A DNA stretch of 32,000 nucleotides, taken from NCBI RefSeq assembly GCF_000007145.1, contig NC_003902.1, positions 340,325-372,324 of the forward strand, given 5' to 3'. Shown one piece after another: positions 2,868-24,319 of this stretch. Position numbers and translations under genes: made by a program. Source of the DNA: Xanthomonas campestris pv. campestris str. ATCC 33913 (GTDB lineage Bacteria > Pseudomonadota > Gammaproteobacteria > Xanthomonadales > Xanthomonadaceae). Positions within the stretch are counted from its first letter, which is position 1. The number at the start of each line of letters is the position of its first letter. The notes beneath the pieces were generated by a model. The model worked only from the letters and a program-made list of their open reading frames with translations, did not search any database and had not been told where the DNA came from.

Positions 2868-3200
2868 TCAGCTGCCGCGATAGGTGGAATAGCCGTACGG
2901 CGACAGCAGCAGCGGCACGTGGTAATGGCCATGCTCGCCTAGGTTGAAGACGATCGGCACCATCTCCAGGAACGGCGGGTCGGCCAGCGCGGTGCCGCTG
3001 GCCTGCCAGTAGCCGGCCACGTCGAACTCCAGCCGGTAGCGGCCCCTTGCCAGATGCAACGTGGCCAGGGCCGGGCAGCGCCCGTCGGCATCGGTGGCCG
3101 CCTCCAGGCACAGGGTGTCGCCGGCGAACAGGCGCAGCGTGACGCCCGCAGCCGGGCGGCCGGCGGCGGTGTCGAGCACATGGGTGGAGAGCGTGCTCAT
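2868..3200 (-). CDS. uraH: 5-hydroxyisourate hydrolase (transthyretin-like)
   Basis: 110 aa from ATG 3200 (MSTLSTHVLDTAAGRPAAG...). Ends in the family signature ...HYHVPLLLSPYGYSTYRGS. Its ATG overlaps the upstream stop as ATGA, which favours 3200 over the longer ORF start at 3227. Confidence 0.9.
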   Translation of the reverse strand: MSTLSTHVLDTAAGRPAAGVTLRLFAGDTLCLEAATDADGRCPALATLHLARGRYRLEFDVAGYWQASGTALADPPFLEMVPIVFNLGEHGHYHVPLLLSPYGYSTYRGS

Positions 3201-4618: not shown

Positions 4619-5106
4619 GGCAATGCCTCCAGGCGCAGGTGCACGATCTTGCCGATCTCGGCGAGGGCGGTGGCGATTTCGTCGTTGCGTGGTGCGTCCA
4701 GGCGACGCTGCAGTTCGGCCAGGATCCCGGCCTTGTCCTGCAAGCGCACGCAGATCACGAAGGGGAATCCAAAGCGCTGCCGGTAGGCATGGTTGAGTGC
4801 GTGAAAGCGGTGGAATTCGTCTTCGTCGAGCCGGTCCAGGCCGGCCGAGGCCTGCTCGGCGGCGGAGGCGGCGGTGAGGGTGCGGTCGATTGCGGCCTTG
4901 CCGGCCAGTTCCGGATGCGCGCGGATCAGCGCCAGCTGATCGTCGGGTGAGGCGTCGTACACCACCTGCATCAATCCGCCAAACACATCGTCGAACGGGC
5001 GGCGGCGCGCAGCGCGTTCGACCACCCACGGCGAATGCTCGAACAGCGCGCGGTAGCGCGCCACGAAGGCGGCGGTGTCCAGCGCGTTGGCATCGATCAC
5101 GCTCAT
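4615..5106 (-). CDS. uraD: 2-oxo-4-hydroxy-4-carboxy-5-ureidoimidazoline (OHCU) decarboxylase
   Basis: 163 aa. ...LFEHSPWVVERAA...LIRAHPELAGK...EQASAGLD...FHALNHAYRQRFGFPFVICVR matches the OHCU decarboxylase family. ATGA overlaps at both ends. Confidence 0.9.
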   Translation of the reverse strand: MSVIDANALDTAAFVARYRALFEHSPWVVERAARRRPFDDVFGGLMQVVYDASPDDQLALIRAHPELAGKAAIDRTLTAASAAEQASAGLDRLDEDEFHRFHALNHAYRQRFGFPFVICVRLQDKAGILAELQRRLDAPRNDEIATALAEIGKIVHLRLEALP

Positions 5107-5498
5107 GCGTGGCTGCCTTGCAGCGAGACGTGCGCAGCCACCACTTTCCAGCCATCGGTAAAGCGCACCCAGGTCTGGCTCTGGCGGCCGTGCGCGGTGC
5201 TGCCCTCGCGCACGAATTCCGCATGCGTGGTGGCAAGATCCTGGCCGAAGCCGTGCACCGCAACGTGCACGAGCTGGCGCTGCGGCGAGCCGCCACGACC
5301 GATGCGAAATGCACGGATCGCCTCGCTGCCGTACAGCACTTCGCCCACGCCATAGCGCACTGTGCTTGGCGCGGCATGGAACAGCGCATCCATCGCGGCG
5401 ATATCGTCGTGCATCAAGGCGTGCTCATACGCATGGAATGCCGCGGTGACCTCGGCGATCACCTCCGGCAGATCGATGCTGGCCGTGTCGATGCTCAT
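5103..5498 (-). CDS. hpxZ: NTF2-fold AtzH-like / oxalurate catabolism protein HpxZ-like (DUF3225)
   Basis: 131 aa from ATG 5498. YEHALMHDDIAAMDALF...STVRYGVGEVLYGSEAIRAFR...GRQSQTWVRFTDGWKVVAAHVS matches remembered AtzH-like/HpxZ motifs. ATGA-coupled on both sides. Confidence 0.75.
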   Translation of the reverse strand: MSIDTASIDLPEVIAEVTAAFHAYEHALMHDDIAAMDALFHAAPSTVRYGVGEVLYGSEAIRAFRIGRGGSPQRQLVHVAVHGFGQDLATTHAEFVREGSTAHGRQSQTWVRFTDGWKVVAAHVSLQGSHA

Positions 5499-6385
5499 GC
5501 CGGGTGCACCTGTAGCCAGTGACGCGCGATGTCGATGCGGCGTGCAACCCAGGCATCGCCACTGGCCAGCACGTGATCGACAAAACGTGCCAGCGCTGCG
5601 GCACGCGCCGGCTTGCCGACGATGCGCCCGTGCAGGCCGATGGAGAGCATGCGCCCGCCTTCGCTGCGCAGCTGTTCGAAGCTGTCGTGCAGATAGCGGA
5701 AGAACGGCTCGCCATCGGCAAAACCATTGTAGGCGACGAATTTCATGTCGTTGACATCGAGCGTGTACGGCACGATCAGCTGCGCACGGCCGTGGCGCCG
5801 GTCGTAGTACGGCACGTCGTCGGCATAGCTGTCGGCGTCGTAGACGAAGCCGCCTTCCTCGGCCACCAGACGCGCGGTATTGGGGCTGGTGCGGCCTTGA
5901 TACCAACCAAGCGGGCGGCTGCCGGTGACTTGCGTATGCAGGGCGATGGCCTCGGCCAGATGCGCGCGTTCGGTGGCTGCATCCACGTGCTGGTAGTCGA
6001 TCCAGCGCAACCCATGGCTGGCGATTTCCCAGTCGGCCGATTGCATCGCCGCCACCGCCTCGGGATTGGCGGCGAGCGCGGTGGCGACACCGAACACGGT
6101 GACCGGCACGCCGCGCGCGCTGAACAGCCGATGCAGCCGCCAGAACCCGGCGCGGCTGCCGTATTCGTACAGGCTTTCCATCGCCATGGCGCGTGCGCCC
6201 GGATGCGACGGCGCGCCGACCATTTCCGACAGGAACGCTTCCGAACCGGCATCGCCGTTGAGCACGCAGTTTTCCGCGCCCTCTTCGTAGTTGATGACGA
6301 ACTGCACCGCGATGCGCGCGCCACCTGGCCATTGCGCCGGCGGCGGCGTGGCGCCATAACCGACCAGGTCGCGCGCCGTACTCAT
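5495..6385 (-). CDS. puuE: allantoinase PuuE (polysaccharide-deacetylase family)
   Basis: 296 aa from ATG 6385 (MSTARDLVGYG...). RIAVQFVINYEEGAENCVLNGD...YEYGSRAGFWR...WEIASHGLRWIDY...LSIGLHGRIVGKPAR is typical of PuuE. Confidence 0.9.
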   Translation of the reverse strand: MSTARDLVGYGATPPPAQWPGGARIAVQFVINYEEGAENCVLNGDAGSEAFLSEMVGAPSHPGARAMAMESLYEYGSRAGFWRLHRLFSARGVPVTVFGVATALAANPEAVAAMQSADWEIASHGLRWIDYQHVDAATERAHLAEAIALHTQVTGSRPLGWYQGRTSPNTARLVAEEGGFVYDADSYADDVPYYDRRHGRAQLIVPYTLDVNDMKFVAYNGFADGEPFFRYLHDSFEQLRSEGGRMLSIGLHGRIVGKPARAAALARFVDHVLASGDAWVARRIDIARHWLQVHPA

Positions 6386-7638: not shown

Positions 7639-8899
7639 TGGGAGCTCCGAAGTGTTCGATGAAATGGCGCATCACCGCCAGGGCGACCTCGGCATCGGCC
7701 GGGTCGACGTGTTCGTCCGGATGATGGCTGATGCCGCCGGCGCAGCGCACGAACAGCATCGCGGTGGGGCAGAGCGCCGCCATCACCATGGCGTCGTGCC
7801 CGGCGCCGGAGACCAGCGGCCGTGGTGTGATGCCTTGCGCGGCGACCGCTTGCGTCAGGCGGGCGATCAATGCCGGCGCGCAGGGGCTGGCCGCCAGCGC
7901 CTGCAGCGGCTCGACGGCGATGGCAACCCCGCGCGCGGCAACCACCTGCTCCAGGGCGCGTTCGATCTGCGCCACTGCAGCGTCGCGGCGGTGGTCATCG
8001 CCGGCGCGCACGTCCAGCGTGCAGTCCACGCGGCCGGGCACCACGTTGATGGCGCCGGGGGCGACCTCCAGCTTGCCAACGGTGGCAACCAGATCGTCGC
8101 CGCCACTGCGCGCAATCTGCTCGATCATCAGCAGCGCTTCGGCGGCCGCGCTCAAGGCATCGCGGCGCAGCGCCATGGTGGTGGTGCCGGCGTGGCCGGC
8201 GCGGCCGTCGAAGCGCAGCCGAAAGCGCCGTTGCGCGGCGATGCCGGTGACGATGCCAACCGGCAGCTGCGCGACTTCCAGCACCGGGCCTTGTTCGATA
8301 TGCGTTTCCAGATACGCCAGCACGCTGCCCGGCACGCGCGCGGCTTCATGTAGACGTGCGGCGTCCAGGCCCCACGCGGCCAGCGCGGTGGCCACGTCGA
8401 CGCCGTCTGGATCGCGCACGGCCAGGGCGGCCGCATCCAGCGTGCCGGCCACCGCGCGGCTACAGAACATCGATGCCGGAAAGCGCGAGCCTTCTTCATC
8501 GCCGAACCCAACGACTTCGATCGCAAACGGCAGCCGGCGCCCTTGTGCGTGCAGCGCGGCCACGCATTCGATGCCGAGCAGCACGCCCAGCGGGCCGTCA
8601 TAGCGCCCGGCCGCGCGCACGCTGTCCAGGTGGCTGCCGATCAACAGCGCCGGTGCGTGCGCATGCGCGCCTTCGTAGCGCCCGACCAGATTGGCGGCCG
8701 CATCCAGGCGCACCTGCATGCCGGCCTGGCGCATCCACGCGCCCACCTGCTCGGTGGTGGCGCGATGCGCCGGGCTGAGCCAGCTGCGGAACAGACCGGT
8801 GGGGGTGTCGCTGAAGGGCGCCACGCCCAGCGCATCACAGCGCGCCACGGCCCGTGCGCCGGAGGCAACGGGGGCGTTGCTGGCTACCGCACTCAGCAT
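7628..8899 (-). CDS. allC: allantoate amidohydrolase (M20 Zn-hydrolase, AllC family)
   Basis: 423 aa from ATG 8899. GSHLDSV, GFGDEEGSRF, GHAGTTTM and SGAGHDAM motifs of the M20 amidase/carbamoylase family. The 522-aa ORF in the track is a 5' run-on into the promoter region. Confidence 0.85.
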   Translation of the reverse strand: MLSAVASNAPVASGARAVARCDALGVAPFSDTPTGLFRSWLSPAHRATTEQVGAWMRQAGMQVRLDAAANLVGRYEGAHAHAPALLIGSHLDSVRAAGRYDGPLGVLLGIECVAALHAQGRRLPFAIEVVGFGDEEGSRFPASMFCSRAVAGTLDAAALAVRDPDGVDVATALAAWGLDAARLHEAARVPGSVLAYLETHIEQGPVLEVAQLPVGIVTGIAAQRRFRLRFDGRAGHAGTTTMALRRDALSAAAEALLMIEQIARSGGDDLVATVGKLEVAPGAINVVPGRVDCTLDVRAGDDHRRDAAVAQIERALEQVVAARGVAIAVEPLQALAASPCAPALIARLTQAVAAQGITPRPLVSGAGHDAMVMAALCPTAMLFVRCAGGISHHPDEHVDPADAEVALAVMRHFIEHFGAPIGT

Positions 8900-9035
8900 G
8901 CGGTGATCCGGCAGTGGTGGGACAGGGCAAACGCAGCGGTGGGCTGGGGCATGTCTGCGTGCTCGATGTCGTGGCCCGTGTTGCGGGGCGGGAGGGGCGT
9001 CTCGACTATACGAACGTCGTCGTGTCGCCCCAAAG

Positions 9036-9077
9036 CGGTTTTTTTCGAGGTTGCCGTTGCAAAAAATGCGACGGGCC
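9036..9077. promoter_or_regulatory. conserved regulatory module with T-N11-A dyad TTGCAAAAAATGCGA in the allC / lysR divergent region
   Basis: CGGTTTTTTTCGAGGTTGCCGTTGCAAAAAATGCGACGGGCC. The dyad is at 9057-9071. A near-identical module occurs at 25446-25484 in the other divergent LysR promoter region. Confidence 0.45.
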
Positions 9078-9211
9078 TGGAGCGAGCACCTGCACAGAGG
9101 AGCGCGGGGCATGCAGTAGCCGAATCCCGTGCTGCGCGCATCGCCGACCGGACGTGCCAGGCCCATTGCCGGACTGTTACAGTCGGTGCGGGGCATGAAT
9201 CGGATTCACCA

Positions 9212-10105
9212 ATGGCGCGCGATAATTTCAAGGACCTGCTGGCGCTGATCGCCATCGTGCGGGAAGGCAGCTTCACCCGGGCCGCGGCAAAGCTGGGGGT
9301 GTCGCAGTCGGCGCTCAGCCACACCATCCGCGGGCTGGAAGCGACGCTCGGCCTGCGCCTGCTCACCCGCACCACCCGCAGCGTGGCGCCGACCGAGGCC
9401 GGCGAGCGCCTGATCCAGACGGTGGCGCCGCGCTTTGCCGAGATCGAAGAGGCGCTGTCGGCGCTGAGCGAGATGCGCGACACCCCGGCTGGCAGCGTGC
9501 GCATCACCGCCACCGACTATGCCGCGCGCGAAATCCTGTGGCCCAAGCTGGCGGTGCTGCTGCGCCAGTACCCGGACATCAAGGTGGAACTGGTGGTGGA
9601 CAACGGCCTGACCGACATCGTGGCCGACCGTTACGATCTCGGCGTGCGCCTGGGCGACCAGGTGGAAAAAGACATGATCGCCGCGCGCATCGCGCCGGAC
9701 ATGCGCATGGCATTGATCGCCTCGCCCGCCTACCTGGAACGCCGGCCGCTGCCCAAGACCCCGCAAGACCTCACCGCGCACCTGTGCATCAACCTGCGCA
9801 TGACCACCGCCGGCGGCATCTACGCCTGGGAACTGGAAAAGGACGGCCGCGAGATCGCAGTGCGTGTGGAGGGCCAGCTCACCTTCAACAGCATCTATGA
9901 AGCATTGGATGCGGCGCTGCAGGGGTTCGGCATCGCCTTCGTGCAGGAAGACCTCGCCCGGCCGCACATCAAGGCCGGGCGGCTGCGTTGGGTGATGAAG
10001 GACTGGTCACCCACCTGGCCCGGCCTGCATGCGTTCTACCCCAGCCGCCGGCATTCCTCGCCCGCGTTCAACCTGGTGCTGGAGGCGCTGCGGCATAAGG
10101 GCTGA
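9212..10105 (+). CDS. LysR-family transcriptional regulator
   Basis: 297 aa from ATG 9212. The N-terminal wHTH FTRAAAKLGVSQSALSHTIRGLEATLGLRLLTRTTRSVAPTEAG is followed by a LysR substrate-binding domain. Divergent from allC. Confidence 0.9.
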   Translation: MARDNFKDLLALIAIVREGSFTRAAAKLGVSQSALSHTIRGLEATLGLRLLTRTTRSVAPTEAGERLIQTVAPRFAEIEEALSALSEMRDTPAGSVRITATDYAAREILWPKLAVLLRQYPDIKVELVVDNGLTDIVADRYDLGVRLGDQVEKDMIAARIAPDMRMALIASPAYLERRPLPKTPQDLTAHLCINLRMTTAGGIYAWELEKDGREIAVRVEGQLTFNSIYEALDAALQGFGIAFVQEDLARPHIKAGRLRWVMKDWSPTWPGLHAFYPSRRHSSPAFNLVLEALRHKG

Positions 10106-15415: not shown

Positions 15416-16996
15416 TCACCACCCAGCCACCGCACCATCCGATCTTGGGTCGCTCGCACCACTCACCACGCCGGTGACCTCACGCACCAGGGCGCCAGCA
15501 TGCCCCATCACCGAGCTATAGGCCGGTAACAGTTCGACGGCGTGGCCGGCGTCGCGCAGTGCTTGCACCACGGCCGGGTCGAAGCGGTCTTCCAGCTTCA
15601 ACGTGGTGCTGTCGTCGCCCCAGGTGCGGCCGAGCAGCCAGCGCGGTGCGGTGATGGCCTGTTGCAACGGCATGCCGAAGTGGGCGTAGCGCGAGAACAG
15701 CGCGGCCTGGGTCTGCGGTTGGCCTTCGCCGCCCATGGTGCCGTAGGCCATGACGCGGCCATCGTCGAAGGTGGCCAGGGCGGGGTTGAGGGTGTGGAAC
15801 GGTTTACGCCCTGGGGCGAGTGCATTCCAGCCGTCGGTGGCGAGGCGAAAGCTGCAGCCGCGATTCTGCCAGGTGATGCCGGTATGCGGCAGCACCAGGC
15901 CGGAGCCGAATTCGAAATAGGTGGACTGGATGCAGCTCACCGCGCGGCCCTGCGCGTCGATGGCGCCGAACCAGACGGTGTCGCCGGCCTGCGAGGGCTG
16001 CGGCCAGGGCAGGGCCGCGTGCAGGTCGATGCGGGCGGCCAGTGCGTCCAGCGCAGCGCTGTCGTCGAGCAGGGCTTGTGCGTCGAGCGTCATCCAGGCG
16101 CTGTCGCCGATGTGGGCGTCGCGAATCAGGAAGGCCTGTTTGGTGGCTTCGATCAGGCCATGCAGGTGCGCGAAACTGTCTGCCTGCGTGGCCGGCAGGC
16201 GGTCGAACAGCGCCAGGATCAACAGCGAGGCCAGCCCTTGCGTGGGCGGTGCGTGGTTATACAAACGTGCACCGGCGATGGCGACTGAGAGCGGCACGCT
16301 GGCCTCGGCGGTGTGTGTGGCCAGGTCATCCGCATGCAACGGGCTGCCGAGTACGCGTAGGTCGGCGGCGATGTCATCGGCGAGCGCGCCGCGGTAGAAA
16401 CTGTCCAGGCCATCGTGCGCCAGCCGTTGCAGGGTGCGCGCGAGCTGGGGTTGCTGCAGCACGGCGCCCTCGTGCAGGGGCGCGCCGCGCGGCTCGAAGA
16501 TGCGCGCATAGGCGCCCGGCAGGCAACGCAGTTCATCGCCCTTGCTGGCGGCGATGTGCGCACCGCCGAGCGTGATCGGCACGCCCACCTCGGCATGGTG
16601 GATGGCCTCTTCCAGCAGCTGCTGCAGCGGGAGCGTGCCACCACCGTGCTGGAGCGCAAGCGCCCAGCCGGAGACGGTGCCGGCCACGGTATTGGCGGCG
16701 CCCGGGCCGCGCCAGGGGATGTGGGTGTGGCCGCGATAGAAGTCCAGCGTGGCCGCCTGTGCGGCACGGCCGCAGGCGTCGATGGCGTGTACGCGGCCAT
16801 CGGGTTCGTGGATCAGCCAGAAGCCATCGCCGCCGATGCCGGTCATGTGCGGATACACCACGGCCAGACAGGCGGCGGTGGCCACCGCTGCTTCGATGGC
16901 GTTGCCGCCGGCGCGCAGGATGTCGCGCCCGGCCTGCGCGGCCAGATGGTGAGGCGCGACCACCATGCCGCGGCGTGCGCGCAAGGTGTGCAGCAT
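15416..16996 (-). CDS. hpxW: gamma-glutamyltransferase-family Ntn amidohydrolase, HpxW-like (candidate oxamate amidohydrolase)
   Basis: 526 aa from ATG 16996. GGT fold motifs: GGNAIEAAVA, HMTGIGGDGFWL, the putative autoprocessing nucleophile in GDTVWFGAIDAQGRAVSCIQS, and YGTMGGEGQPQTQ. Its start overlaps the amidase stop (TGATG). The 1007-aa ORF in the track is a run-on. Confidence 0.75.
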   Translation of the reverse strand: MLHTLRARRGMVVAPHHLAAQAGRDILRAGGNAIEAAVATAACLAVVYPHMTGIGGDGFWLIHEPDGRVHAIDACGRAAQAATLDFYRGHTHIPWRGPGAANTVAGTVSGWALALQHGGGTLPLQQLLEEAIHHAEVGVPITLGGAHIAASKGDELRCLPGAYARIFEPRGAPLHEGAVLQQPQLARTLQRLAHDGLDSFYRGALADDIAADLRVLGSPLHADDLATHTAEASVPLSVAIAGARLYNHAPPTQGLASLLILALFDRLPATQADSFAHLHGLIEATKQAFLIRDAHIGDSAWMTLDAQALLDDSAALDALAARIDLHAALPWPQPSQAGDTVWFGAIDAQGRAVSCIQSTYFEFGSGLVLPHTGITWQNRGCSFRLATDGWNALAPGRKPFHTLNPALATFDDGRVMAYGTMGGEGQPQTQAALFSRYAHFGMPLQQAITAPRWLLGRTWGDDSTTLKLEDRFDPAVVQALRDAGHAVELLPAYSSVMGHAGALVREVTGVVSGASDPRSDGAVAGW

Positions 16997-18456
16997 CAGC
17001 GTGTCTCCGCCGGTGCGCTGAACGCGAGCAGCCCATCGCGTTCGAGTTGCGCGGCCAGAGCGAACAGGCGGTCTTCGCGGCCTGGCGCGGCAATCAGCTG
17101 CACGCCCAGCGGCAAGCGACCCGGGCGCGGTAGCGGCGCGGCCAGCACCGGGCAGGCGGCCAGCCCAAGCGGCTGGGTGAAGATGCCCAGGTTGGCGCGC
17201 GCCGAGACCGGCAGGCCATCGATGATGATGCTCTCTTGGTCGATGCGCGGCGCCACGCCAGGTGTGGCCGGCGCGATCAACACATCCACGCGGTCCCACA
17301 GCGTGCGCATGGCCCGCGCGAACCAGTGCGCGAACTGCTGTGCATCGGCCACCGCGCTGGCCGGCAATTGCAAGCCGGCCAACAGGCGGTCGCGGGTGGC
17401 TGGGTCGAATTGGGCGGCCTGTGTGCTGAGGGCGTTGCGATGGCGGTGCCCGCCCTCGGCGGCGGTGAGCACGAACGCGGCGGCGCGCGCGCGTTCGGCG
17501 TCCGGTAACTCCATGATGGTGGTGCTGCCGATCGCAGTGAGCAGCGTGCCGAGGCCGGCCTCCAGCTCGGGATCGAGGTTGCGTTGGAACCAGCCGCCCA
17601 ATTGCGCGATGCGCAGCGTCTCCACGCTGCAAGCGGGTACCGGGTGCCCGTGCATCACTTCGTAGACGCGGCGCAGGTCGGCAACCGAGGTCGCGAACGG
17701 GCCCACCACATCCAGCGCATCCACGAACGGGAACACGCCCTGCAACGGCAGCGTGCCGTGGGTCGGTCGCAACCCGTACACGCCGCACAGGGCAGCCGGC
17801 ACGCGGATCGAGCCATTGGTGTCCGAGCCCAGTGCAAACGGCACCCATCCAGCCGCCACTGCGGCGGCCGAGCCACCGGACGAGCCGCCGGCCAGATGGC
17901 GATGGTCGTGCGGATTGGCGGTGGTGCCGTAATGCGCGTTGACGGTGGCAAAGCCGTAGGCAAATTCGTCCATGTTGGCGGTGCCCACCAGCACTGCACC
18001 GGCATCGCTCAGGCGCTGCACCACGGCCGCATCGCGCGTGGCCGGCGCGCTTTGTGCGCGCAGCGCAGCACCGGCGGTGGTGACCTGCCCGGCCACATCG
18101 AACAGATCCTTGACCACGAACGGCACGCCGGCCAGCGCGCCGCCATCGCTGCCGCCGGCCAGCGCGGCCTGCACGCGCGCGGCATCGGCCGCGGCGCGCG
18201 CCGGCAACAAGCGGGTGATGGCATGCAGGCCATCGTTGGCCTGATTGATGCGGCCCAGTGTCTGGGTGGCCAGGCGCGCCGCCTGTGCGGGCTGGCTGCG
18301 CGTGCTGCCGACGATGGAGGCGATCTGCCCGCGCGAAGTGCTTGTGTCCGGTGATGCGGGGCGCGGTGCGTTGAAGCTGGCGAGCAGCTGCGCGTGACCA
18401 CGCAGGACCTCGGTGTTGCGATCGATGCCGGCCTGCCACTGCGCGGGGAGTTGCAT
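16996..18456 (-). CDS. hpxY: amidase-signature enzyme, AtzE/HpxY-like, with an AtzG/HpxX-like N-terminal extension
   Basis: 486 aa. Amidase signature: VPFVVKDLF, GGSSGGSAAAVAAG, GSDTNGSIRVPAALCG. Residues 1-30 (MQLPAQWQAGIDRNTEVLRGHAQLLASF) resemble the C-terminal half of DUF4089/AtzG-like small subunits. They are joined by a Pro/Ser/Thr linker. Confidence 0.8.
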   Translation of the reverse strand: MQLPAQWQAGIDRNTEVLRGHAQLLASFNAPRPASPDTSTSRGQIASIVGSTRSQPAQAARLATQTLGRINQANDGLHAITRLLPARAAADAARVQAALAGGSDGGALAGVPFVVKDLFDVAGQVTTAGAALRAQSAPATRDAAVVQRLSDAGAVLVGTANMDEFAYGFATVNAHYGTTANPHDHRHLAGGSSGGSAAAVAAGWVPFALGSDTNGSIRVPAALCGVYGLRPTHGTLPLQGVFPFVDALDVVGPFATSVADLRRVYEVMHGHPVPACSVETLRIAQLGGWFQRNLDPELEAGLGTLLTAIGSTTIMELPDAERARAAAFVLTAAEGGHRHRNALSTQAAQFDPATRDRLLAGLQLPASAVADAQQFAHWFARAMRTLWDRVDVLIAPATPGVAPRIDQESIIIDGLPVSARANLGIFTQPLGLAACPVLAAPLPRPGRLPLGVQLIAAPGREDRLFALAAQLERDGLLAFSAPAETR

Positions 18457-18504
18457 GGGGTCACCTTGGGTTGCTGGGAGTGGTGCGGGTGCGTGGTGTC
18501 GCTC

Positions 18505-18680
18505 GAGCCCCTCTCCCGCCGGGAGAGGGGTTGGGGTGAGGGTGCCCCGCTAGTTGGAGATGTATCAGGTATGCGTTTACCTTGCTTGCCACCTACTCAA
18601 CTGGCGCGGCGTCTTTATCGGGTGACGTACCCTCATCCGCCCTTCGGGCAACTTCTCCCGATGGGAGAAGGGAGAGCGGC
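18505..18680. repeat. MITE-like inverted-repeat element (hairpin CCCCTCTCCC-GCC-GGGAGAGGGG plus GGGGTGAGGGT box at one end, ACCCTCA ... CTTCTCCC-GAT-GGGAGAAG at the other)
   Basis: The left arm (18508-18543) and the reverse complement of the right arm (18629-18670) align as imperfect terminal inverted repeats around an ~85-nt core. The same motifs recur at 26419-26690. Confidence 0.5.
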
Positions 18681-19756
18681 AGTCCGACTGCTGGTGATTG
18701 CGGTGCAGTGAGGTGATCGACCAATAGCTGCTCAAACGCCTGCACATTCACAGCATGCACCACCGTCTGTGCCTGTTCGCCCAGTCCAGGCTGATAGCCC
18801 GGCGCCCACGACAAAATGTCGCCATAGCCTGCGTCGAACGCGGTGTTGGTGTCGATGTAGAGCGTTTCGGTGTGCGTCGCCAACTCGGGGCGCAGCCACA
18901 CCGCAGTGGCCAGCTCGTCCCACATCGGAAAGCCGGTTTCGCGGCGACGCAATGCGTGGCCGATGGGGGTGTCGGCCGCGCTCATGCGCGCCAATAGCTC
19001 CGGGGTGAGTTCGGTGGCGGTGGAGGGATCCACCGGCACCATGGTGATCTTCCGCCACGGTGCGCGCATGACGATGCTGGCGGCTTCCGGGTCCCAGCGG
19101 ATGTTGAATTCGCGGCGTGGCGAATTGACGAACTCGCGCGCGAATTGGCGCGCGCTCACGCTGTCGCGCTGCTGGCGTGGATTGAGGCTGCCGCCCATGT
19201 AGACCAGTTCGCGCGCCAGCGTGGCGAAGGCCGGGTCCAGGGCCTGCGCGAGGGCCAGGTTGGTCAATGGGCCAGTGGCAATGATGCTCACCTCGCCGGG
19301 GTACTGGCGCACCATGCGCAGCATGAACAGCGCCGCCGGTTCGTCGGATGCGCGCACCACGCTGGGGTTGCCCAGTGGCAGATCGGGCACCACGTCGTGC
19401 GCGTGATAACGCGGCGCACTCTGCACGGTGTCGCCATCCACCCAGTGTTTGGTCCATGCACCTTTCCACACCAGCTTGCCGTACAGCGCTTCCCACCGTT
19501 CGGTGGCCAGCTCGCTGTTGAGCAGCGGGTGCACCGGGCCGGGATGCACCAGAATCTGCGGCTGCCCGGCCAGTTCCAGCAGGCGGCAGCTGTGTGCGAT
19601 CACCTCATCGCGCCAGATGTTGCCGCTGACCGCGCTGATGCCGAGCACCTCGACCTCCGGCGACTGCAGCAACAGCAACTGCGCGGGCGTGAAGCCGTCG
19701 ATGTCGTCTTCGAGGATGACGCGGCGTTTGGATGGGGCGGCGTGCGAGTGGGTCAT
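18593..19756 (-). CDS. nucleoside hydrolase (IU-NH fold)
   Basis: 387 aa from ATG 19754-19756. Motifs: ISAVSGN, IIATGPLTNLALA, YMGG, W(M)WDELA-type C-terminal region. The N-terminal Asp cluster is atypical (VILEDDIDG). The last ~29 codons are read from the repeat element. Confidence 0.75.
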   Translation of the reverse strand: MTHSHAAPSKRRVILEDDIDGFTPAQLLLLQSPEVEVLGISAVSGNIWRDEVIAHSCRLLELAGQPQILVHPGPVHPLLNSELATERWEALYGKLVWKGAWTKHWVDGDTVQSAPRYHAHDVVPDLPLGNPSVVRASDEPAALFMLRMVRQYPGEVSIIATGPLTNLALAQALDPAFATLARELVYMGGSLNPRQQRDSVSARQFAREFVNSPRREFNIRWDPEAASIVMRAPWRKITMVPVDPSTATELTPELLARMSAADTPIGHALRRRETGFPMWDELATAVWLRPELATHTETLYIDTNTAFDAGYGDILSWAPGYQPGLGEQAQTVVHAVNVQAFEQLLVDHLTAPQSPAVGLPLSLLPSGEVARRADEGTSPDKDAAPVE

Positions 19757-19885: not shown

Positions 19886-21454
19886 TTATGCGTCAGCTGG
19901 TGTTGTCTGCACTTTGCGCTGCTCCATCAGCATGCGCTCGTACTGCGCCAGATCGGTTTCAAGCTGCCATTGCAGCCGTGCCTTCTCGCTGCTCTGGCGA
20001 AATGCTTGGCACCCAGCATCATCGGTTTCGCGCTGTAATGCAGTGGCGCAGGCCTGCGCAGCTTTACCGTTGGCGCTCCACAGGCTCGCGCCCGGCAGGA
20101 AGCTGTACGTCAGCCCGTTGCGGGCGAGTTGCTTGAGCGTGGGGTACTCGATGCCCTGCTCCTGCACGGCGCGTTGATATTCGTGGGTCATGTCCGCGCG
20201 CGACACGCCGGCATCGTCGGTGGAGAGCACCACCGGCACACCCGCGCGCAGATACATGGCCAACGGATGCGCGGCCCCGGTGACGCCCAGGATCACATCG
20301 TTACTGGTGAGGTTGATCTCCACCGCTACCTGGTCGCGGCGCATGCGCTGCAGCAGCTCTTGCGCGTCGTCTTCGTAAGGCAGATCCACGCCATGACCGA
20401 TGCGCCGCGCACCGGCATCCACCGCCTGGCGGATATGCGAGCGCAGCTGCGCCGGTGGCACCAGGCCCAGGGTCAGCTCGCCGGCATGCAAGGACAACGG
20501 CACGCCGGGGTAGCGCTGTGCGAAGAACCGGAACATCGCCATGTGGCGCGCGTAATCGGCCACTGCCACCGGGTTGTCCTCGGGCGCGACGATGTTCACC
20601 GCCACCGCGCGGCTGCCGCCGGCGGCCACGAGCGCATGGGCGAGCGCCATCTGCCCGAACACCTGCGGCGCAGGCAGCACACGCAACACATACGGCACAT
20701 AGCGGTACTGCACCTGGCAGGCCGCGCGTGGCTGCGCCTGGTCACACTGCAGGACGTGGCGCACCTGCGCGTCGAGGTCGGCAAGGTTGCGCTGTGCGGC
20801 CTGCACCAGCGGTGGCAGCGCGTCCTGCAGTTCGCGCAGGTTTGCGGCATCGTCGGTGCCATGCCAGGGCAGCGCCTGCATGCGCTGCGCAGCGTCGTCC
20901 ATCTGTGGTGGGTTGGCGATGATTTCCACGTACGGCACGCGGTCGCGCGCGGCCTGCTCCAGCACGGCGGCCACGGTGTCGGCCACGCGTGCGCGCACCA
21001 CCGCATCGAACTTGCCGAAGGTGCTGAAGAACTGCCCGTGCCCGGTGGGTTGGGATGGGCTGGCCAGGTGGTTGCGCATCGACAAGGCATCCACCACCCG
21101 GCCATACAGCGCGACATCGCGCGTGGACAGCCCGCGTGCGGGCACCTGGCCGGCCACGCACGGCGGTGCGCGCAGGCTCAGGTCGTCCAGCTGCACGCAG
21201 GCGCCGTCTTCGCTGGCCCACTGCAGGTAGTCCTCGGCATACACCGAGCCGGAGAGATGGTTATGCAGGTCGCCGCCTTTGGGCATGGCCTGCAACCAAC
21301 TGCGCAGTTGCGCCGATTGGCCGGCCGTATCGCGAAACAACTGCGCAACCTGCTGCTCGCGCGATTGTGCGGGCGCAGGCGTTTGGCGCGCCTGCGCAAG
21401 TGCGGGCAGCAGCGCGCACACGGTGAGGATCAGACAACGACGCAGCATGGGCAT
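19886..21454 (-). CDS. secreted/periplasmic adenosine deaminase (ADGF/ADA2-like large form)
   Basis: Signal peptide MPMLRRCLILTVCALLPALAQA. Metal and catalytic motifs GGDLHNHLSGS, SLHAGE, IGHGVD and LSTDDAGV. 522 aa; the start is ATG 21454 or 21448. Confidence 0.85.
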   Translation of the reverse strand: MPMLRRCLILTVCALLPALAQARQTPAPAQSREQQVAQLFRDTAGQSAQLRSWLQAMPKGGDLHNHLSGSVYAEDYLQWASEDGACVQLDDLSLRAPPCVAGQVPARGLSTRDVALYGRVVDALSMRNHLASPSQPTGHGQFFSTFGKFDAVVRARVADTVAAVLEQAARDRVPYVEIIANPPQMDDAAQRMQALPWHGTDDAANLRELQDALPPLVQAAQRNLADLDAQVRHVLQCDQAQPRAACQVQYRYVPYVLRVLPAPQVFGQMALAHALVAAGGSRAVAVNIVAPEDNPVAVADYARHMAMFRFFAQRYPGVPLSLHAGELTLGLVPPAQLRSHIRQAVDAGARRIGHGVDLPYEDDAQELLQRMRRDQVAVEINLTSNDVILGVTGAAHPLAMYLRAGVPVVLSTDDAGVSRADMTHEYQRAVQEQGIEYPTLKQLARNGLTYSFLPGASLWSANGKAAQACATALQRETDDAGCQAFRQSSEKARLQWQLETDLAQYERMLMEQRKVQTTPADA

Positions 21455-21577: not shown

Positions 21578-22891
21578 TCACTCCAGCGCATAGCGCAGCA
21601 CGAACAGGCCGGCGATGGCCCAGGTGGCTGGATGCACCTCACGCCAACGCCCGCTGCCTAGCCGGAGCACCGCATAGGTGATGAAGCCCAACGCCAACCC
21701 ATTGGCGATCGAATAGGTGAAGGGCATCGCCAGCATGCACATGGCGGCCGGCAACGCTTCGCCGACATCGTCCCACTGCAGATGCGCGCACTCGCGCAGC
21801 ATCACTGCCGCCAGATACAGCAACGCCGGTGCGGTGGCGTAGGCCGGCACCATGGCTGCCAGCGGCGAGAACAGCAGGGCCAGCAGGAACAGCGCGGCCA
21901 CCACCAGCGCGGTCAGCCCGGTGCGCCCACCCACCTGCACGCCAGCGGCGCTTTCCACATAGGCCGTGGTGCTGGAGGTGCCAAGCAGCGAGCCGGCCAG
22001 GATGGCGCTGCTGTCGGCGAGCAGAGCGCGGTCGAACTGGCGGCGCTGGGCTGTGGTGCGCAGCAAGCCGGCGCGCTGCGCCACCCCCATCAAGGTGCCG
22101 GTGGCATCGAACATCTCCACCAGCACGAACACCAGCACCACGTGCAGTACCGCGGTCAATGCGCCTTCGCCAGCGTGGCCCTGCAGGGCACCGGCAATAT
22201 CCAGTTTCAGCAAGGTGGGTGCCAGACTCGGCGGCAGCGCGATCACGCCCCGGTACTGCACCAGCCCGAGTGCGAGTGCCGCAGCGGTGACCGCCAGGAT
22301 GCCGAGCAGCATCGCCCCGCGCACGCGCCGCAGCTCCAGCACGCCGATCAGCAGCAACCCGGCCAACGCCAGCAAGGGCTCGGGCCGGTGCAGGTCGCCC
22401 AGGGTGATCAAGGTCTGCGGGTGGGCCACCACCAGCCCGGCTTTCTGCAGGCCGATCACCGCCAGGAACAGGCCGATACCGGCGGCGATTGCGCTGCGTA
22501 ACGTGGTGGGGATGCCGTCCACCAGCCACCGGCGCGCGCCGGTGAGGGTGAGCAGCAGGAACACGCAGCCGGACACGAACACCAGGCCCAGCGTCTGTTG
22601 CCAGCTGTAGCCCAGGGTGCCCACCACGCTGAAGGCGAAGAAGGCGTTCAAGCCCATGCCGGGCGCCATGCCGATCGGGTAATTGGCCAGCAGGCCCATC
22701 ACCGCCGAGCCGAATGCCGCGGCCAGGCAGGTGGCCACAAACACCGCGCCGTGATCCATGCCGGTAGTGGCCAGGATGTCCGGGTTGACGAACACGATGT
22801 AGGCCATCGTGAGGAAGGTGGTGGCGCCGGCCAGCAGCTCGGTGCGCACGTTGCTGCCGTTGGCGGCAAGCGCAAAGTTGGGCCAGCGCAT
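21578..22891 (-). CDS. NCS2-family (AzgA-like) adenine/guanine/hypoxanthine permease
   Basis: 437 aa from ATG 22891. RTELLAGATTFLTMAYIVFVNP, GMAPGMGLNAFF and TSSTTAYVESAAGVQVGGRTGLTA are hallmarks of the PurP/GhxP/AdeQ group. The longer ORF start at 22915 is a TTG. Confidence 0.9.
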   Translation of the reverse strand: MRWPNFALAANGSNVRTELLAGATTFLTMAYIVFVNPDILATTGMDHGAVFVATCLAAAFGSAVMGLLANYPIGMAPGMGLNAFFAFSVVGTLGYSWQQTLGLVFVSGCVFLLLTLTGARRWLVDGIPTTLRSAIAAGIGLFLAVIGLQKAGLVVAHPQTLITLGDLHRPEPLLALAGLLLIGVLELRRVRGAMLLGILAVTAAALALGLVQYRGVIALPPSLAPTLLKLDIAGALQGHAGEGALTAVLHVVLVFVLVEMFDATGTLMGVAQRAGLLRTTAQRRQFDRALLADSSAILAGSLLGTSSTTAYVESAAGVQVGGRTGLTALVVAALFLLALLFSPLAAMVPAYATAPALLYLAAVMLRECAHLQWDDVGEALPAAMCMLAMPFTYSIANGLALGFITYAVLRLGSGRWREVHPATWAIAGLFVLRYALE

Positions 22892-23342
22892 CAGGCGCGC
22901 CCCAGCGGCCGGCAAGCGGCGGCACAGCAGAACAGTGTCATCGGCAACATCTCATCGAACACAGGCACCGGCGCGTAAGCGCGGGCTGCGTATCTTGCAC
23001 TGTGCGCGGTGGCATGCCGTGGACGTGTTGCCCGAAATGCGCAGTGGCCTGTGGATGGCGTTGGTTGGCAACGCCTGATGAGAAGGTTGCAGCGCGCCGT
23101 TGCGCCACGCGTGTGCCTGGGCGGCAAGCCGAGCGTGCTGATGTCTGCATCGCACACGGCACCCGGCAACCGCAACAGCTGACTCATCCTCGCGATGGAT
23201 GGCAGAACGTGACGCAGCGGCGCCAGTGATGGCAGGGGTCGCTAGCGGGGACATGGATCACAGCGTGTTCGAGCATCGCCAACGCGCCCGCGCTTGATCG
23301 TTGCCGCGTCGGTCGCATCACGTGTCGGCCTTGCCGCGGTGC

Positions 23343-24302
23343 TCAAAGTTCCAGCACCAGCCGTGGCGTGCGGCTGCGCGAACAGCACAGGGTGATCTGC
23401 GTGTTCTGCGCGTGTTCGCTGTCGCTGAGCACGCTGTCGCGGTGATCGGGCACGCCATCGAGCACGCCGGTCAGGCAGGCCCCGCACATGCCTTGCTCGC
23501 ACGACAGCGGCACCTCCACGCCTGCGGCCATCAGCGCACTGGCGATACTGCACTCGGCCGCCACCTGCACCACGCGCCCGCTGGCGGCCAGCTCAACTTC
23601 GAAGGCGTCGTCGGCGGCGTGCGGCACGGCCGGCGCGACCGCGGCGAAGTGTTCGCGATGCAGCTGCGCCGGCGCCCAGCCCTGCGCCAGGGCCAGCGCG
23701 CTGAAGTGATCCATGAACGCGGCCGGCCCGCACAGATACAGCTGGTCGCGCGCGTGTGCCTTGCGCAGTTCGGTGGGGATGTGCACACGCGGGCTCTCGC
23801 CCCCATCGCTCAGGTGCACCTGCACCTGGCCGTGCTGGAAGCCCTGCTGCAGGCGCTGCCCGAAGGCCACATCCGCCTGCCGGCGTGCGTAGTAGTGCAG
23901 CACGAAGGCCTCGCCGCGCGCTTCCAGCGCCTCGACCATCGACAGCAGCGGAGTGATGCCGATCCCGGCCGCCAGCAGCACATGGCGTTCGCCCGGGTGT
24001 AACGGGAACAGGTTGCGCGGCGTGGAGATCTGCAGCCGGTCGCCGGCCGCGAGTTGTTCGCACAGATGCCGCGAGCCGCCGCGCGAGGCGTCGGCCAGCT
24101 TCACGCACAACAGGTAATGGTCGCGCGCATGCGGCGCGCTGGCGATGGAGTACTGGCGGATCAAACCATCGGGCAGGTGCAGGTCCACATGCGCGCCGGC
24201 TTCAAAGGCCGGCAACTCCGCGCCGATCGGCTCCAACCGGATCGCCCGCTGGCGATGTCCCTGGTCGACGACTTCCGCCACACGCACCTCATGCAGGCTC
24301 AT
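23343..24302 (-). CDS. hpxE: PDR/VanB-type oxidoreductase (flavin + NAD + C-terminal plant-type 2Fe-2S), HpxE-like
   Basis: RQYSIAS flavin motif, LLAAGIGITPLLSM NAD motif and C-terminal CEQGMCGACLT...CC ferredoxin cysteines. ATG 24302 has GAGGAT 8 nt upstream. The alternative TTG 24323 overlaps the upstream stop. Confidence 0.8.
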   Translation of the reverse strand: MSLHEVRVAEVVDQGHRQRAIRLEPIGAELPAFEAGAHVDLHLPDGLIRQYSIASAPHARDHYLLCVKLADASRGGSRHLCEQLAAGDRLQISTPRNLFPLHPGERHVLLAAGIGITPLLSMVEALEARGEAFVLHYYARRQADVAFGQRLQQGFQHGQVQVHLSDGGESPRVHIPTELRKAHARDQLYLCGPAAFMDHFSALALAQGWAPAQLHREHFAAVAPAVPHAADDAFEVELAASGRVVQVAAECSIASALMAAGVEVPLSCEQGMCGACLTGVLDGVPDHRDSVLSDSEHAQNTQITLCCSRSRTPRLVLEL

Positions 24303-24319
24303 GCCGTCATCCTCGCCGG

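What the first reader, a model, noticed from the sequence alone, without database searches (positions are those of the whole stretch)
16996..18456. AtzG/HpxX-like peptide fused in-frame to the AtzE/HpxY-like amidase, with only the C-terminal half of the small-subunit motif retained
In the cyanuric-acid AtzEGH complex and in Klebsiella hpxWXYZ, the ~60-aa DUF4089 protein (AtzG/HpxX) is a separate polypeptide that stabilises the amidase. Here the amidase ORF starts MQLPAQWQAGIDRNTEVLRGHAQLLASF. This fits the remembered DUF4089 pattern LP-x5-GV-x2-NL-x3-L-x3-A-x-L-x2-F. A linker NAPRPASPDTSTSRG follows, and then the normal amidase N-terminus (IASIVGSTRS...). I traced the frame upstream: it contains no ATG/GTG/TTG before a TAG at 18550-18552, and it runs into a repeat element. 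Either a natural fusion exists or the 5' half of a former hpxX was lost. The substrate of this enzyme class in purine catabolism is still biochemically unresolved; a reasonable guess is oxalurate hydrolysed at its terminal amide, by analogy with 1-carboxybiuret.
Basis: partly seen in the sequence, partly recalled or inferred. Interest (0 to 1): 0.75.

Follow-up and report, generated by a model that had tools for sequence, protein, structure and literature searches.

The report
Amidase with its helper subunit fused on
In Xanthomonas, a purine-breakdown amidase that normally needs a separate ~60-residue helper protein carries a conserved 30-residue piece of that helper at its own start; this natural single-chain form is real but is a modest variant of a known two-protein enzyme.

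Summary
The ORF at 16996-18456 (-) encodes a 486-aa AtzE-family amidase (TIGR02715, 679 bits).

**Homology.** Residues 2-32 are homologous to the central conserved block of the AtzG/HpxX small subunit. hhalign gives 95.9% probability, E 5.7e-9. An HMM of stand-alone AtzG ORFs finds this segment as the only significant hit in the six-frame window (E 9e-6). Pfam's own model scores only 13.2 bits, below its cutoff of 24, so databases do not annotate the domain.

**Origin.** This is not a recent truncation by the neighbouring repeat element. The same ATG, preceded by a conserved AGGTGA, starts the gene in every Xanthomonas species compared. The upstream DNA is unrelated between species. Codons 1-31 are under purifying selection (pN/pS 0.27); the linker is relaxed (0.60).

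**Spread.** Pseudoxanthomonas, a Stenotrophomonas isolate and some metagenomic relatives share the fusion, and together they form one clade on an amidase-core tree. Other lineages carry independent fusions with a complete AtzG.

**Structure.** AlphaFold2 predicts residues 5-26 as a fairly confident helix, followed by a disordered linker.

**Context.** The window is a urate/allantoin catabolism locus containing HpxW-like and AtzH-like genes. The best reading is a single-chain HpxXY amidase with a minimal helper segment acting within the same chain. The substrate, probably oxalurate, remains untested. This is a new variant of a known kind, of moderate interest.

The parts
18364..18456 (-). Codons 1-31 of the amidase ORF: remnant of the AtzG/HpxX small subunit (central conserved block, predicted helix at residues 5-26)
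   Evidence: hhalign against stand-alone AtzG-like ORFs: 95.9% probability, E 5.7e-9, residues 2-32. HMM hit E 9e-6, unique in the six-frame window. PF13318 positions 11-41/50 at 13.2 bits. pN/pS 0.27 across 32 Xanthomonas sequences. AF2 helix 5-26, pLDDT 75-84.
18328..18363 (-). Codons 32-43: variable linker, colinear with the decayed C-terminal tail of AtzG plus the former atzG-atzE junction
   Evidence: pN/pS 0.60 and nucleotide identity 0.65. AF2 pLDDT below 50 for residues 31-40. Colinear, with one 2-residue gap, with the Acetobacter indonesiensis atzG tail, stop codon and atzE start read through in frame.
16996..18327 (-). Codons 44-486 plus stop: AtzE/HpxY-family amidase-signature core
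   Evidence: TIGR02715 679 bits (cutoff 425.75) and NF006631 651 bits. Pfam Amidase, residues 64-464. 6c62_A E 2.4e-98. Foldseek TM 0.85/0.90 to 6c62_A. K116, S192, S193 and S216 are invariant in 71 homologues.
18461..18467 (-). Shine-Dalgarno-like AAGGTGA, 4 nt upstream of the ATG
   Evidence: AGGTGA (AGGTAA in L024) is conserved in all 32 Xanthomonas sequences, with a 3- or 4-nt spacer (ccc/cccc indel). Nucleotide identity falls to 0.31-0.38 further upstream.
18499..18539 (.). REP-like palindromic element in the intergenic spacer (not part of the gene; a species-variable insertion)
   Evidence: Inverted repeat of 20-nt arms. The motif occurs at 4 sites (8 strand-matches) in the window against 0.04 expected. 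It is absent from the same position in many Xanthomonas species.
15416..16996 (-). HpxW-like gamma-glutamyltransferase-family gene (predicted oxamate amidohydrolase); its ATG overlaps the amidase stop (TGATG)
   Evidence: PF01019 418.6 bits. TIGR00066 351 bits, just under its cutoff of 357.85. The overlap is read from the sequence. The same amidase-GGT pairing occurs in other fused loci, L081 and L083.
5103..5510 (-). AtzH-like / HpxZ-like gene, the third partner of the atzG-atzE-atzH module, located in the uricolysis operon
   Evidence: PF11533 AtzH-like 187.4 bits. 48% identity to the Acetobacter AtzH-like ORF, E 3e-34.
18593..19756 (-). Upstream neighbour: inosine-uridine-type nucleoside hydrolase (context; its 3' end runs into a second REP-like copy at 18652-18670)
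   Evidence: PF01156 170.3 bits, residues 25-342 of 387. REP copy located.

Best explanation
The gene encodes a natural single-chain version of the two-subunit AtzE-AtzG / HpxY-HpxX amidase. Shown: an ancestral atzG-like small ORF lying directly upstream of the amidase gene became part of the amidase reading frame. In the lineage leading to Xanthomonas, Pseudoxanthomonas and relatives, only its central conserved block survived, about 30 residues with the pattern [IL]P-x3-x-[PA]G[IV]-x2-N-x3-L-x2-[HY]-x3-L-x2-F. The AtzG N-terminal helix was lost, and the conserved C-terminal tail decayed into a flexible linker of about 12 residues. Translation starts at the ATG at 18456. Inferred: the retained segment forms an amphipathic helix that packs, within the same chain, against the amidase core at the place the separate AtzG subunit normally occupies. 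It would thereby do AtzG's known job, keeping AtzE folded and soluble, without a second gene. Inferred from context and from the chemistry of AtzE: the enzyme acts in the ureide branch of purine catabolism. It would hydrolyse the terminal amide of oxalurate (made by allantoate amidohydrolase plus the class-V aminotransferase encoded in the same window). The product would be processed, possibly with the AtzH-like protein, to oxamate, which the translationally coupled HpxW-like enzyme converts to oxalate and ammonia.
For: Homology of residues 2-32 to AtzG-like proteins: 95.9%, E 5.7e-9; unique six-frame hit, E 9e-6; PF13318 positions 11-41, weak. Related fused proteins reach 17-21 bits on PF13318. 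Positional rule: in 74 of 80 loci the six-frame scan found an AtzG-like segment, and each significant hit lies immediately 5' of the amidase core. It is a separate ORF covering most or all of the HMM (ending at 46-61 of 61) in Acetobacter, Sphingomonas and Pirellula. It is the first codons of the amidase ORF, starting at HMM position 15-27 (mostly 20-23), in Lysobacterales. Start codon: conserved AGGTGA plus ATG; a 3/4-nt spacer indel breaks any upstream frame; TGA lies one codon upstream in 15 species; upstream identity is about 0.3; there is no other canonical start before codon 83. Selection: pN/pS is 0.27 for codons 1-31, 0.60 for the linker and 0.16-0.19 for the core. G10, N14, L18 and L25 are invariant across 16 diverse Lysobacterales sequences. 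Together with W7, I11, H21 and F28 they fall within a 100-degree arc of a helical wheel (arithmetic on the sequence). AF2: helix 5-26 at pLDDT 75-84, linker below 50, overall 91.3. Single origin: the fused forms make one clade on an amidase-core NJ tree, and the basal members P0074 and P0077 keep part of helix 1. Read-through origin: the query is colinear (one 2-residue gap) with the A. indonesiensis atzG tail, stop and atzE start. AtzG is obligatory for AtzE solubility (PMC6219798). Pathway context. The same amidase-GGT-M20-aminotransferase neighbourhood occurs in other fused loci.
Against: Pfam's curated threshold for AtzG-like is not reached (13.2 against 24 bits). A profile of stand-alone AtzG-like ORFs did not retrieve the crystallised AtzG chain from the PDB sequence set, so the link to the experimentally studied AtzG rests on Pfam family membership of the stand-alone ORFs. 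Docking of the helix at the AtzG site was not verified: no coordinates, PAE or superposition on 6C62 were available, and a pLDDT of 75-84 is suggestive only. No protein-level evidence for the N-terminus was available. Substrate and activity are untested. I could not check whether a stand-alone atzG-like gene exists elsewhere in the genome; there is none in this 32-kb window.
Confidence: 0.75

Rival explanations
1. The N-terminal 31 residues are a translated but functionless leftover of a former atzG gene: a neutral remnant that merely supplies a start codon.
For: The AtzG N-terminal helix and C-terminal tail have already been lost. The linker evolves almost freely (pN/pS 0.60). Pseudoxanthomonas has trimmed the segment further, starting at about HMM position 22-24.
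Against: Codons 1-31 have pN/pS 0.27, close to the catalytic core. G10, N14, L18 and L25 are invariant across genera that share only about 60% identity in the core. The retained block is exactly the highest-information block of stand-alone AtzG. AF2 gives it an ordered helix while the linker is disordered.
Confidence: 0.1
2. The fused precursor is cleaved in the disordered linker after translation, so the mature enzyme is again a two-chain complex of a 30-40-residue peptide and the amidase.
For: The linker is Pro/Ser/Thr-rich, variable and predicted disordered. The known enzyme is a two-chain complex (PMC6219798).
Against: No conserved cleavage motif is visible in the linker. Nothing in the data requires cleavage. 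Such processing would not change the functional reading.
Confidence: 0.08
3. A REP-type repeat element recently inserted into a complete hpxX gene, destroying its 5' half. The present ORF would then be an accidental salvage in this strain.
For: A REP-like palindrome lies 43-83 nt upstream of the ATG, and the amidase frame stays open through it.
Against: The identical start is found in all 32 Xanthomonas sequences compared. Many of them have no REP at this position and instead carry an in-frame TGA one codon upstream. Stenotrophomonas sp., Lysobacteraceae and Pseudoxanthomonas also share the fusion. Upstream sequences are unrelated between species, and no frame upstream encodes an AtzG helix 1.
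Confidence: 0.02
4. Translation really starts downstream at the amidase core, and the AtzG-like stretch is untranslated 5' leader.
For: None, beyond the general uncertainty of start-codon calls in high-GC genomes.
Against: There is no in-frame ATG/GTG/TTG between codon 1 and codon 83. A start at codon 83 would remove helices 44-54 and 58-77, which align to the solved AtzE structure and have pLDDT 88-97. The substitution pattern in codons 1-31 is that of coding sequence, and the SD-like site is conserved. NCBI annotates the same 486-aa product.
Confidence: 0.03

Closest known systems
AtzE-AtzG 1-carboxybiuret amidohydrolase of Pseudomonas sp. ADP (PDB 6C62/6C6G)
   Same: The amidase core is an AtzE-family member: TIGR02715 679 bits, 6c62_A E 2.4e-98, Foldseek TM 0.85-0.90, 42% identity. 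It is associated with an AtzG-like element and an AtzH-like gene.
   Different: The AtzG element is not a separate ~68-aa polypeptide. It is a 31-residue block fused to the N-terminus, lacking the first helix and the conserved tail. The genomic context is purine/ureide catabolism, not the cyanuric-acid atzDGEHF operon. The substrate is probably different.
Klebsiella/enterobacterial hpxWXYZ (ggt-atzG-atzE-atzH cluster described in PMC6219798; hpxY called oxalurate amidohydrolase in PMC12625717)
   Same: The same set of functions occurs next to allantoate amidohydrolase, a transaminase and a LysR regulator: HpxW-like GGT, AtzG-like, AtzE-like and AtzH-like.
   Different: The order is amidase then GGT, with overlapping stop and start. 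hpxX is fused to and truncated within hpxY. The hpxZ/atzH homologue is 11.5 kb away, between OHCU decarboxylase and the PuuE-like allantoinase.
GatC-GatA of the GatCAB tRNA-dependent amidotransferase
   Same: The AtzEG pair is reported to derive from GatCA (PMC6219798). GatA structures are the next-best structural matches. The AtzG-like ORFs are colinear with the N-terminal half of GatC (my reading from memory of GatC sequences, not tested here).
   Different: There is no GatB partner and no tRNA-linked function. The small subunit is reduced to one helix and fused.
Other AtzG-amidase fusions in metagenomes (P0093, P0122, P0126, P0228)
   Same: They share the domain order AtzG-like, then linker, then AtzE-like amidase. 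P0093 sits next to a Xan_ur permease, GGT and M20 genes.
   Different: They keep most or all of AtzG (HMM positions 4-16 to 46-57) and have longer linkers. P0093 nests among unfused AtzE proteins on the tree, so it is an independent fusion.

Membership tests
AtzE family amidohydrolase (TIGR02715 / NF006631) | Score above the curated family cutoff | tested here: met
   TIGR02715 679.2 bits against 425.75; NF006631 651 bits against 461.
AtzE family amidohydrolase (TIGR02715 / NF006631) | Amidase-signature fold and conserved Lys / Ser / Ser motif residues (VKD, GGSSGGS, GSIRxP) | tested here: met
   K116, S192, S193 and S216 are invariant in a 71-sequence alignment. AF2 model at pLDDT 91.3, with TM 0.85/0.90 to 6c62_A.
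AtzE family amidohydrolase (TIGR02715 / NF006631) | 1-carboxybiuret (or other ureido-amide) hydrolase activity | not testable with these tools
   Needs an enzyme assay.
AtzG-like small subunit (Pfam PF13318, formerly DUF4089) | Score above Pfam's gathering threshold | tested here: not met
   13.2 bits, E 0.12, against a cutoff of 24. Related fused proteins reach 17-21 bits.
AtzG-like small subunit (Pfam PF13318, formerly DUF4089) | Detectable homology to family members by profile methods | tested here: met
   hhalign 95.9%, E 5.7e-9 against 23 stand-alone ORFs, 17 of which hit PF13318. HMM hit E 9e-6, unique in the six-frame window.
AtzG-like small subunit (Pfam PF13318, formerly DUF4089) | Separate polypeptide of about 50-70 aa encoded just upstream of the amidase gene | tested here: not met
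   One continuous ORF with no stop between the AtzG-like block and the amidase, in all Lysobacterales loci.
AtzG-like small subunit (Pfam PF13318, formerly DUF4089) | Complete domain: N-terminal helix, central block and C-terminal EPAxEYxP tail | tested here: not met
   Only HMM positions 21-51 of 61 (Pfam 11-41 of 50) are present. The tail is replaced by a variable linker.
AtzG-like small subunit (Pfam PF13318, formerly DUF4089) | Binds AtzE and is required for its solubility | not testable with these tools
   Only indirect support: an ordered helix in the AF2 model and purifying selection.
hpxWXYZ-type ureide module | Co-occurrence of HpxW-like GGT, AtzG-like, AtzE-like and AtzH-like genes with allantoate amidohydrolase and a transaminase | tested here: met
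   All are present in the window, although atzH-like lies 11.5 kb from the amidase.
hpxWXYZ-type ureide module | Four separate genes in the order W-X-Y-Z in one operon | tested here: not met
   Here X and Y are fused, W follows Y, and Z is in another operon.

The most novel reading that the evidence does not exclude
The ~30-residue block kept in Xanthomonas is the minimal functional core of the AtzG/GatC-type 'vestigial' subunit. One amphipathic helix, supplied within the same chain, would then be sufficient to fold and stabilise an AtzE-type amidase. Repeated independent fusions, followed by erosion of the rest of AtzG, would show that the other parts became dispensable once GatB-type partners were lost. 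If so, the Xanthomonas protein should express solubly on its own. It would be the easiest route to the first direct assay of the proposed oxalurate amidohydrolase step of the HPX pathway.
Probability: 0.5. Interest if true: 0.5.

Novelty: new variant of a known kind. Interest (0 to 1): 0.38.

Why it matters
AtzE cannot be produced in soluble form without AtzG (PMC6219798). The substrate of the HpxX/HpxY pair in purine catabolism has only been predicted. A naturally fused, trimmed version addresses both points.

- It shows which part of the small subunit evolution has kept, namely the central block, not the first helix or the tail.
- It offers a one-gene construct for biochemical work on the proposed oxalurate step.
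- It exposes an annotation blind spot. The fused segment scores below Pfam's threshold in every fused protein tested, so databases list these proteins as plain amidases, and Xanthomonas could appear to lack hpxX.

The finding does not reveal a new kind of system. Fusion of a small obligate subunit to its partner is a common evolutionary event.

Tried and rejected
- **Pfam and NCBIfam on the 55-residue N-terminus alone.** The only result was a sub-threshold PF13318 hit, alongside an equally weak, meaningless SoxE hit. NCBIfam gave nothing. This is not decisive alone, so I built family-specific profiles from the loci.
- **PDB search with the stand-alone AtzG-like profile, to find the crystallised AtzG chain.** It returned only designed helical peptides and ferredoxins at E above 0.03, and neither AtzG nor GatC. 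A direct sequence link to the 6C62 small chain was therefore not obtained.
- **The JBC 2018 paper describing the AtzEG structure** (doi 10.1074/jbc.RA118.001996, PMC5961051) is not held. I could not read which AtzG residues contact AtzE.
- **Foldseek against the PDB** gave only large-subunit matches. It cannot show where the N-terminal helix docks.
- **Literature searches** for AtzG, DUF4089, PF13318, HpxX, HpxY and hpxWXYZ found no mention of a fusion.
- **Signal or targeting peptide.** Rejected: the N-terminus has no hydrophobic core (read from the sequence).
- **Helix 1 encoded in another frame or as a tiny ORF upstream.** Rejected: three-frame translations of 13 repeat-free and repeat-bearing species show nothing conserved, and the six-frame HMM scan finds no second hit.
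- **Representative-library search**. The Xanthomonas type is not its own 50%-identity representative, so the search gave no count of fused proteins. It did reveal further fusions with a complete AtzG.
Full report
**What is there.** The minus-strand ORF 16996-18456 encodes 486 residues beginning MQLPAQWQAGIDRNTEVLRGHAQLLASFNAPRPASPDTSTSRGQIASIVGS. It is an AtzE-family amidase. TIGR02715 scores 679 bits (cutoff 426) and matches from residue 44; NF006631 scores 651 bits and matches from residue 39. Pfam Amidase covers residues 64-464. The solved AtzE structure 6c62_A aligns residues 58-473 to chain residues 16-449 (E 2.4e-98). About 43 residues therefore precede the normal AtzE N-terminus. The closest database protein is 99% identical, has the same length, and is annotated 'AtzE family amidohydrolase' in Xanthomonas campestris pv. 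raphani. None of the homologues carries a precomputed AtzG-like domain.

**Is the AtzG resemblance real?** Pfam's own model gives only a hint: PF13318 positions 11-41 of 50, 13.2 bits, E 0.12, cutoff 24. I therefore fetched 80 loci encoding relatives of the amidase.
- In Acetobacter, Sphingomonas, Pirellula and others, a separate 45-72-residue ORF lies directly upstream of the amidase gene. Of 23 such ORFs, 17 hit PF13318, the best at E 9.3e-12.
- A profile of the N-termini of 16 diverse Lysobacterales amidases matches the profile of these stand-alone ORFs with 95.9% probability and E 5.7e-9. Residues 2-32 align to positions 21-51 of a 61-residue AtzG-like protein.
- An HMM of the stand-alone ORFs, searched against all 552 six-frame segments of the window, has one good hit: this same stretch (E 9e-6; next best 0.43).
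- Across all 80 loci (12,976 segments), the scan found an AtzG-like segment in 74, and each significant hit lies at the 5' side of the amidase core. It is either a separate ORF covering most or all of the HMM (ending at position 46-61 of 61), or the first codons of the amidase ORF starting at HMM position 15-27, mostly 20-23.

The homology is established.

**What exactly is retained.** In the stand-alone family, the information-rich columns form the central block L-x-I-P-x2-C-L-P-G-V-x2-N-x2-L-L-x2-H-x2-L. A second conserved motif, L-P-D-x-C-E-P-A-x-E-Y-x-P, lies at the C-terminus. The N-terminal helix region is poorly conserved except for A-x3-L-G-L. Xanthomonas keeps the central block only. 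The first helix is absent. The tail corresponds in position to the 'linker' NAPRPASPDTSTSRGQ, which is no longer similar to it. Read through in frame, the query aligns colinearly (one 2-residue gap) with the Acetobacter indonesiensis atzG tail, stop codon and atzE start (...LPAYEYRP*EMSISNL...). This suggests the fusion arose by simple loss of the stop between two adjacent in-frame genes. That origin is an inference.

**Natural fusion or recent damage?** The same start is used throughout the genus.
- All 32 Xanthomonas sequences have AGGTGA (AGGTAA in one), then 3 or 4 nt, then ATG.
- The 3/4-nt indel changes the upstream frame. In 15 species the TGA of AGGTGA is an in-frame stop one codon before the ATG.
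- Beyond the ribosome-binding site, nucleotide identity falls to 0.31-0.38. The sequences are unrelated, with REP-like elements in some species and not others.
- No frame upstream encodes anything like AtzG helix 1.
- There is no other canonical in-frame start before codon 83. A start there would delete helices that align to the AtzE crystal structure.
- Codons 1-31 have pN/pS 0.27. The linker has 0.60, and the amidase has 0.16-0.19.

The palindromic repeat at 18499-18539 is therefore incidental, and the 'recent loss of the 5' half' alternative is refuted.

**How widely the fusion is shared.**
- The fusion also occurs in Stenotrophomonas sp. MMGLT7, a Lysobacteraceae isolate, X. massiliensis and X. 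bonasiae. In Pseudoxanthomonas the segment is trimmed a little further.
- On a neighbour-joining tree of the amidase core, these proteins form one clade together with a few metagenomic and Sphingomonas-labelled proteins. The clade is separate from the unfused Sphingomonas/Acetobacter group. Its basal members P0074 and P0077 still carry part of helix 1 (RRIGDLGIVLPPGD..., MRAAHEMGIDLPAGD...).
- Independent fusions with a complete or nearly complete AtzG exist elsewhere: P0093 (which nests among unfused proteins), P0122, P0126 and P0228.

**Structure.** AlphaFold2 with a 71-sequence alignment gives mean pLDDT 91.3 and pTM 0.88. Residues 5-26 form one helix with pLDDT 75-84. Residues 31-40 score below 50. 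The AtzE core follows from residue 44. The best structural match is AtzE 6c62_A, with TM 0.85/0.90. The residues invariant across Lysobacterales (G10, N14, L18, L25), together with nearly invariant F28 and with W7, I11 and H21, all fall within a 100-degree arc of a helical wheel. This is as expected for a helix packed by one face (arithmetic). I could not inspect coordinates, so docking at the AtzG site remains an inference.

**Context.** The window is a purine/urate catabolism locus. Gene names below are assignments from the Pfam family hits.

| Coordinates | Strand | Gene |
|---|---|---|
| 2868-3227 | - | HIU hydrolase |
| about 3197-4600 | - | FAD-dependent monooxygenase |
| 4615-5106 | - | OHCU decarboxylase |
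| 5103-5510 | - | AtzH-like gene (PF11533, 187 bits) |
| 5495-6445 | - | PuuE-type deacetylase |
| 6382-7638 | - | class-V aminotransferase |
| 7628-9196 | - | M20 amidohydrolase |
| within the 8543-10105 ORF | + | LysR regulator |
| 15416-16996 | - | HpxW-like GGT |
| 16996-18456 | - | the fused amidase |
| 18593-19756 | - | nucleoside hydrolase |
| 19886-21454 | - | adenosine-deaminase-like gene |
| 21578-22915 | - | Xan_ur permease |
| 23343-25522 | - | HpxE/HpxD-like reductase and Rieske oxygenase |
| 25410-26417 | + | second LysR regulator |

The amidase stop overlaps the GGT start (TGATG). Other fused loci show the same amidase-GGT-M20-aminotransferase neighbourhood. This matches the enterobacterial ggt-atzG-atzE-atzH arrangement next to allantoate amidohydrolase and a transaminase (PMC6219798). 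It also fits the name 'oxalurate amidohydrolase' used for hpxY (PMC12625717, citing Huynh & Stewart 2023). HpxW is reported to be an oxamate amidohydrolase (Hicks & Ealick 2016, as cited in PMC5270733).

**Mechanism proposed.**
- Shown: a single ORF joins the AtzG central block, a linker and the AtzE core. It is conserved, under selection, and translated from the ATG at 18456.
- Inferred: the block acts as a built-in AtzG, stabilising the amidase.
- Inferred: the enzyme deamidates oxalurate. The carboxylated product loses CO2, possibly with help from the AtzH-like protein, to give oxamate. The coupled HpxW-like enzyme hydrolyses the oxamate.
- None of the catalytic steps could be tested here.

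**Novelty and score.** No paper in the searchable library mentions an AtzG-AtzE or HpxX-HpxY fusion. Pfam thresholds miss it in every fused protein tested. It is nevertheless a fusion of a known small obligate subunit to its known partner, inside a known pathway context: a new variant of a known kind. Its value is practical. It points to a minimal AtzG core, offers a one-gene construct for the unassayed HpxY step, and corrects the impression that Xanthomonas lacks hpxX. It is not conceptual. Interest 0.38.

Noticed in passing
window 18499-18539, 18652-18670, 26452-26470, 26669-26687: A REP-like palindrome family (CTCTCCCnnnGGGAGAGG, with shared GGGGTTGGGGTGAGGGT and CTTCTCCCGATGGGAGA motifs) occurs as two pairs in two intergenic regions. 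There are 8 strand-matches against 0.04 expected by chance.
   Followed up: partly
window 18593-18730 (3' end of the nucleoside hydrolase ORF 18593-19756): The last ~45 residues of the nucleoside hydrolase, after the Pfam domain ends at residue 342, are encoded by a REP-like element (...PLSLLPSGEVARRADEGTSPDKDAAPVE). Similar tails occur in some other Xanthomonas species (L011, L020) but not in X. maliensis (L024). The repeat insertion has therefore extended or replaced the protein's C-terminus.
   Followed up: partly
window 5103-5510 (-): An AtzH-like / HpxZ-like gene (PF11533, 187 bits) sits between OHCU decarboxylase and the PuuE-type allantoinase, 11.5 kb from the amidase it is normally clustered with. 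Its start overlaps the end of the upstream gene.
   Followed up: partly
window 16994-16998: The amidase stop codon and the start codon of the HpxW-like GGT gene overlap (TGATG), suggesting translational coupling. The same abutting arrangement is seen in metagenomic locus L083 (5452/5452).
   Followed up: partly
window 23343-25522 (-) and 25410-26417 (+): An HpxD/HpxE-like Rieske oxygenase plus FAD/NAD/2Fe-2S reductase pair, with a divergent LysR regulator, lies next to the permease / deaminase / nucleoside hydrolase genes. The window thus holds an HPX-type rather than a xanthine-dehydrogenase-type entry into urate formation.
   Followed up: no
proteins P0093 (locus L081 4001-5575), P0122, P0126, P0228: These are independent fusions of a complete or nearly complete AtzG-like domain to AtzE-like amidases, with long Pro/Gly-rich linkers. 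In P0228 the AtzG-like part seems to join almost directly to the GVPFAVK motif, skipping the usual N-terminal helices of the amidase; that sequence is a 298-aa fragment.
   Followed up: partly
window 19886-21454 (-): The adenosine-deaminase-family protein is 522 aa, and its N-terminus (MPMLRRCLILTVCALLPALAQA...) looks like an export signal. That would place adenosine deamination outside the cytoplasm. Not analysed further.
   Followed up: no
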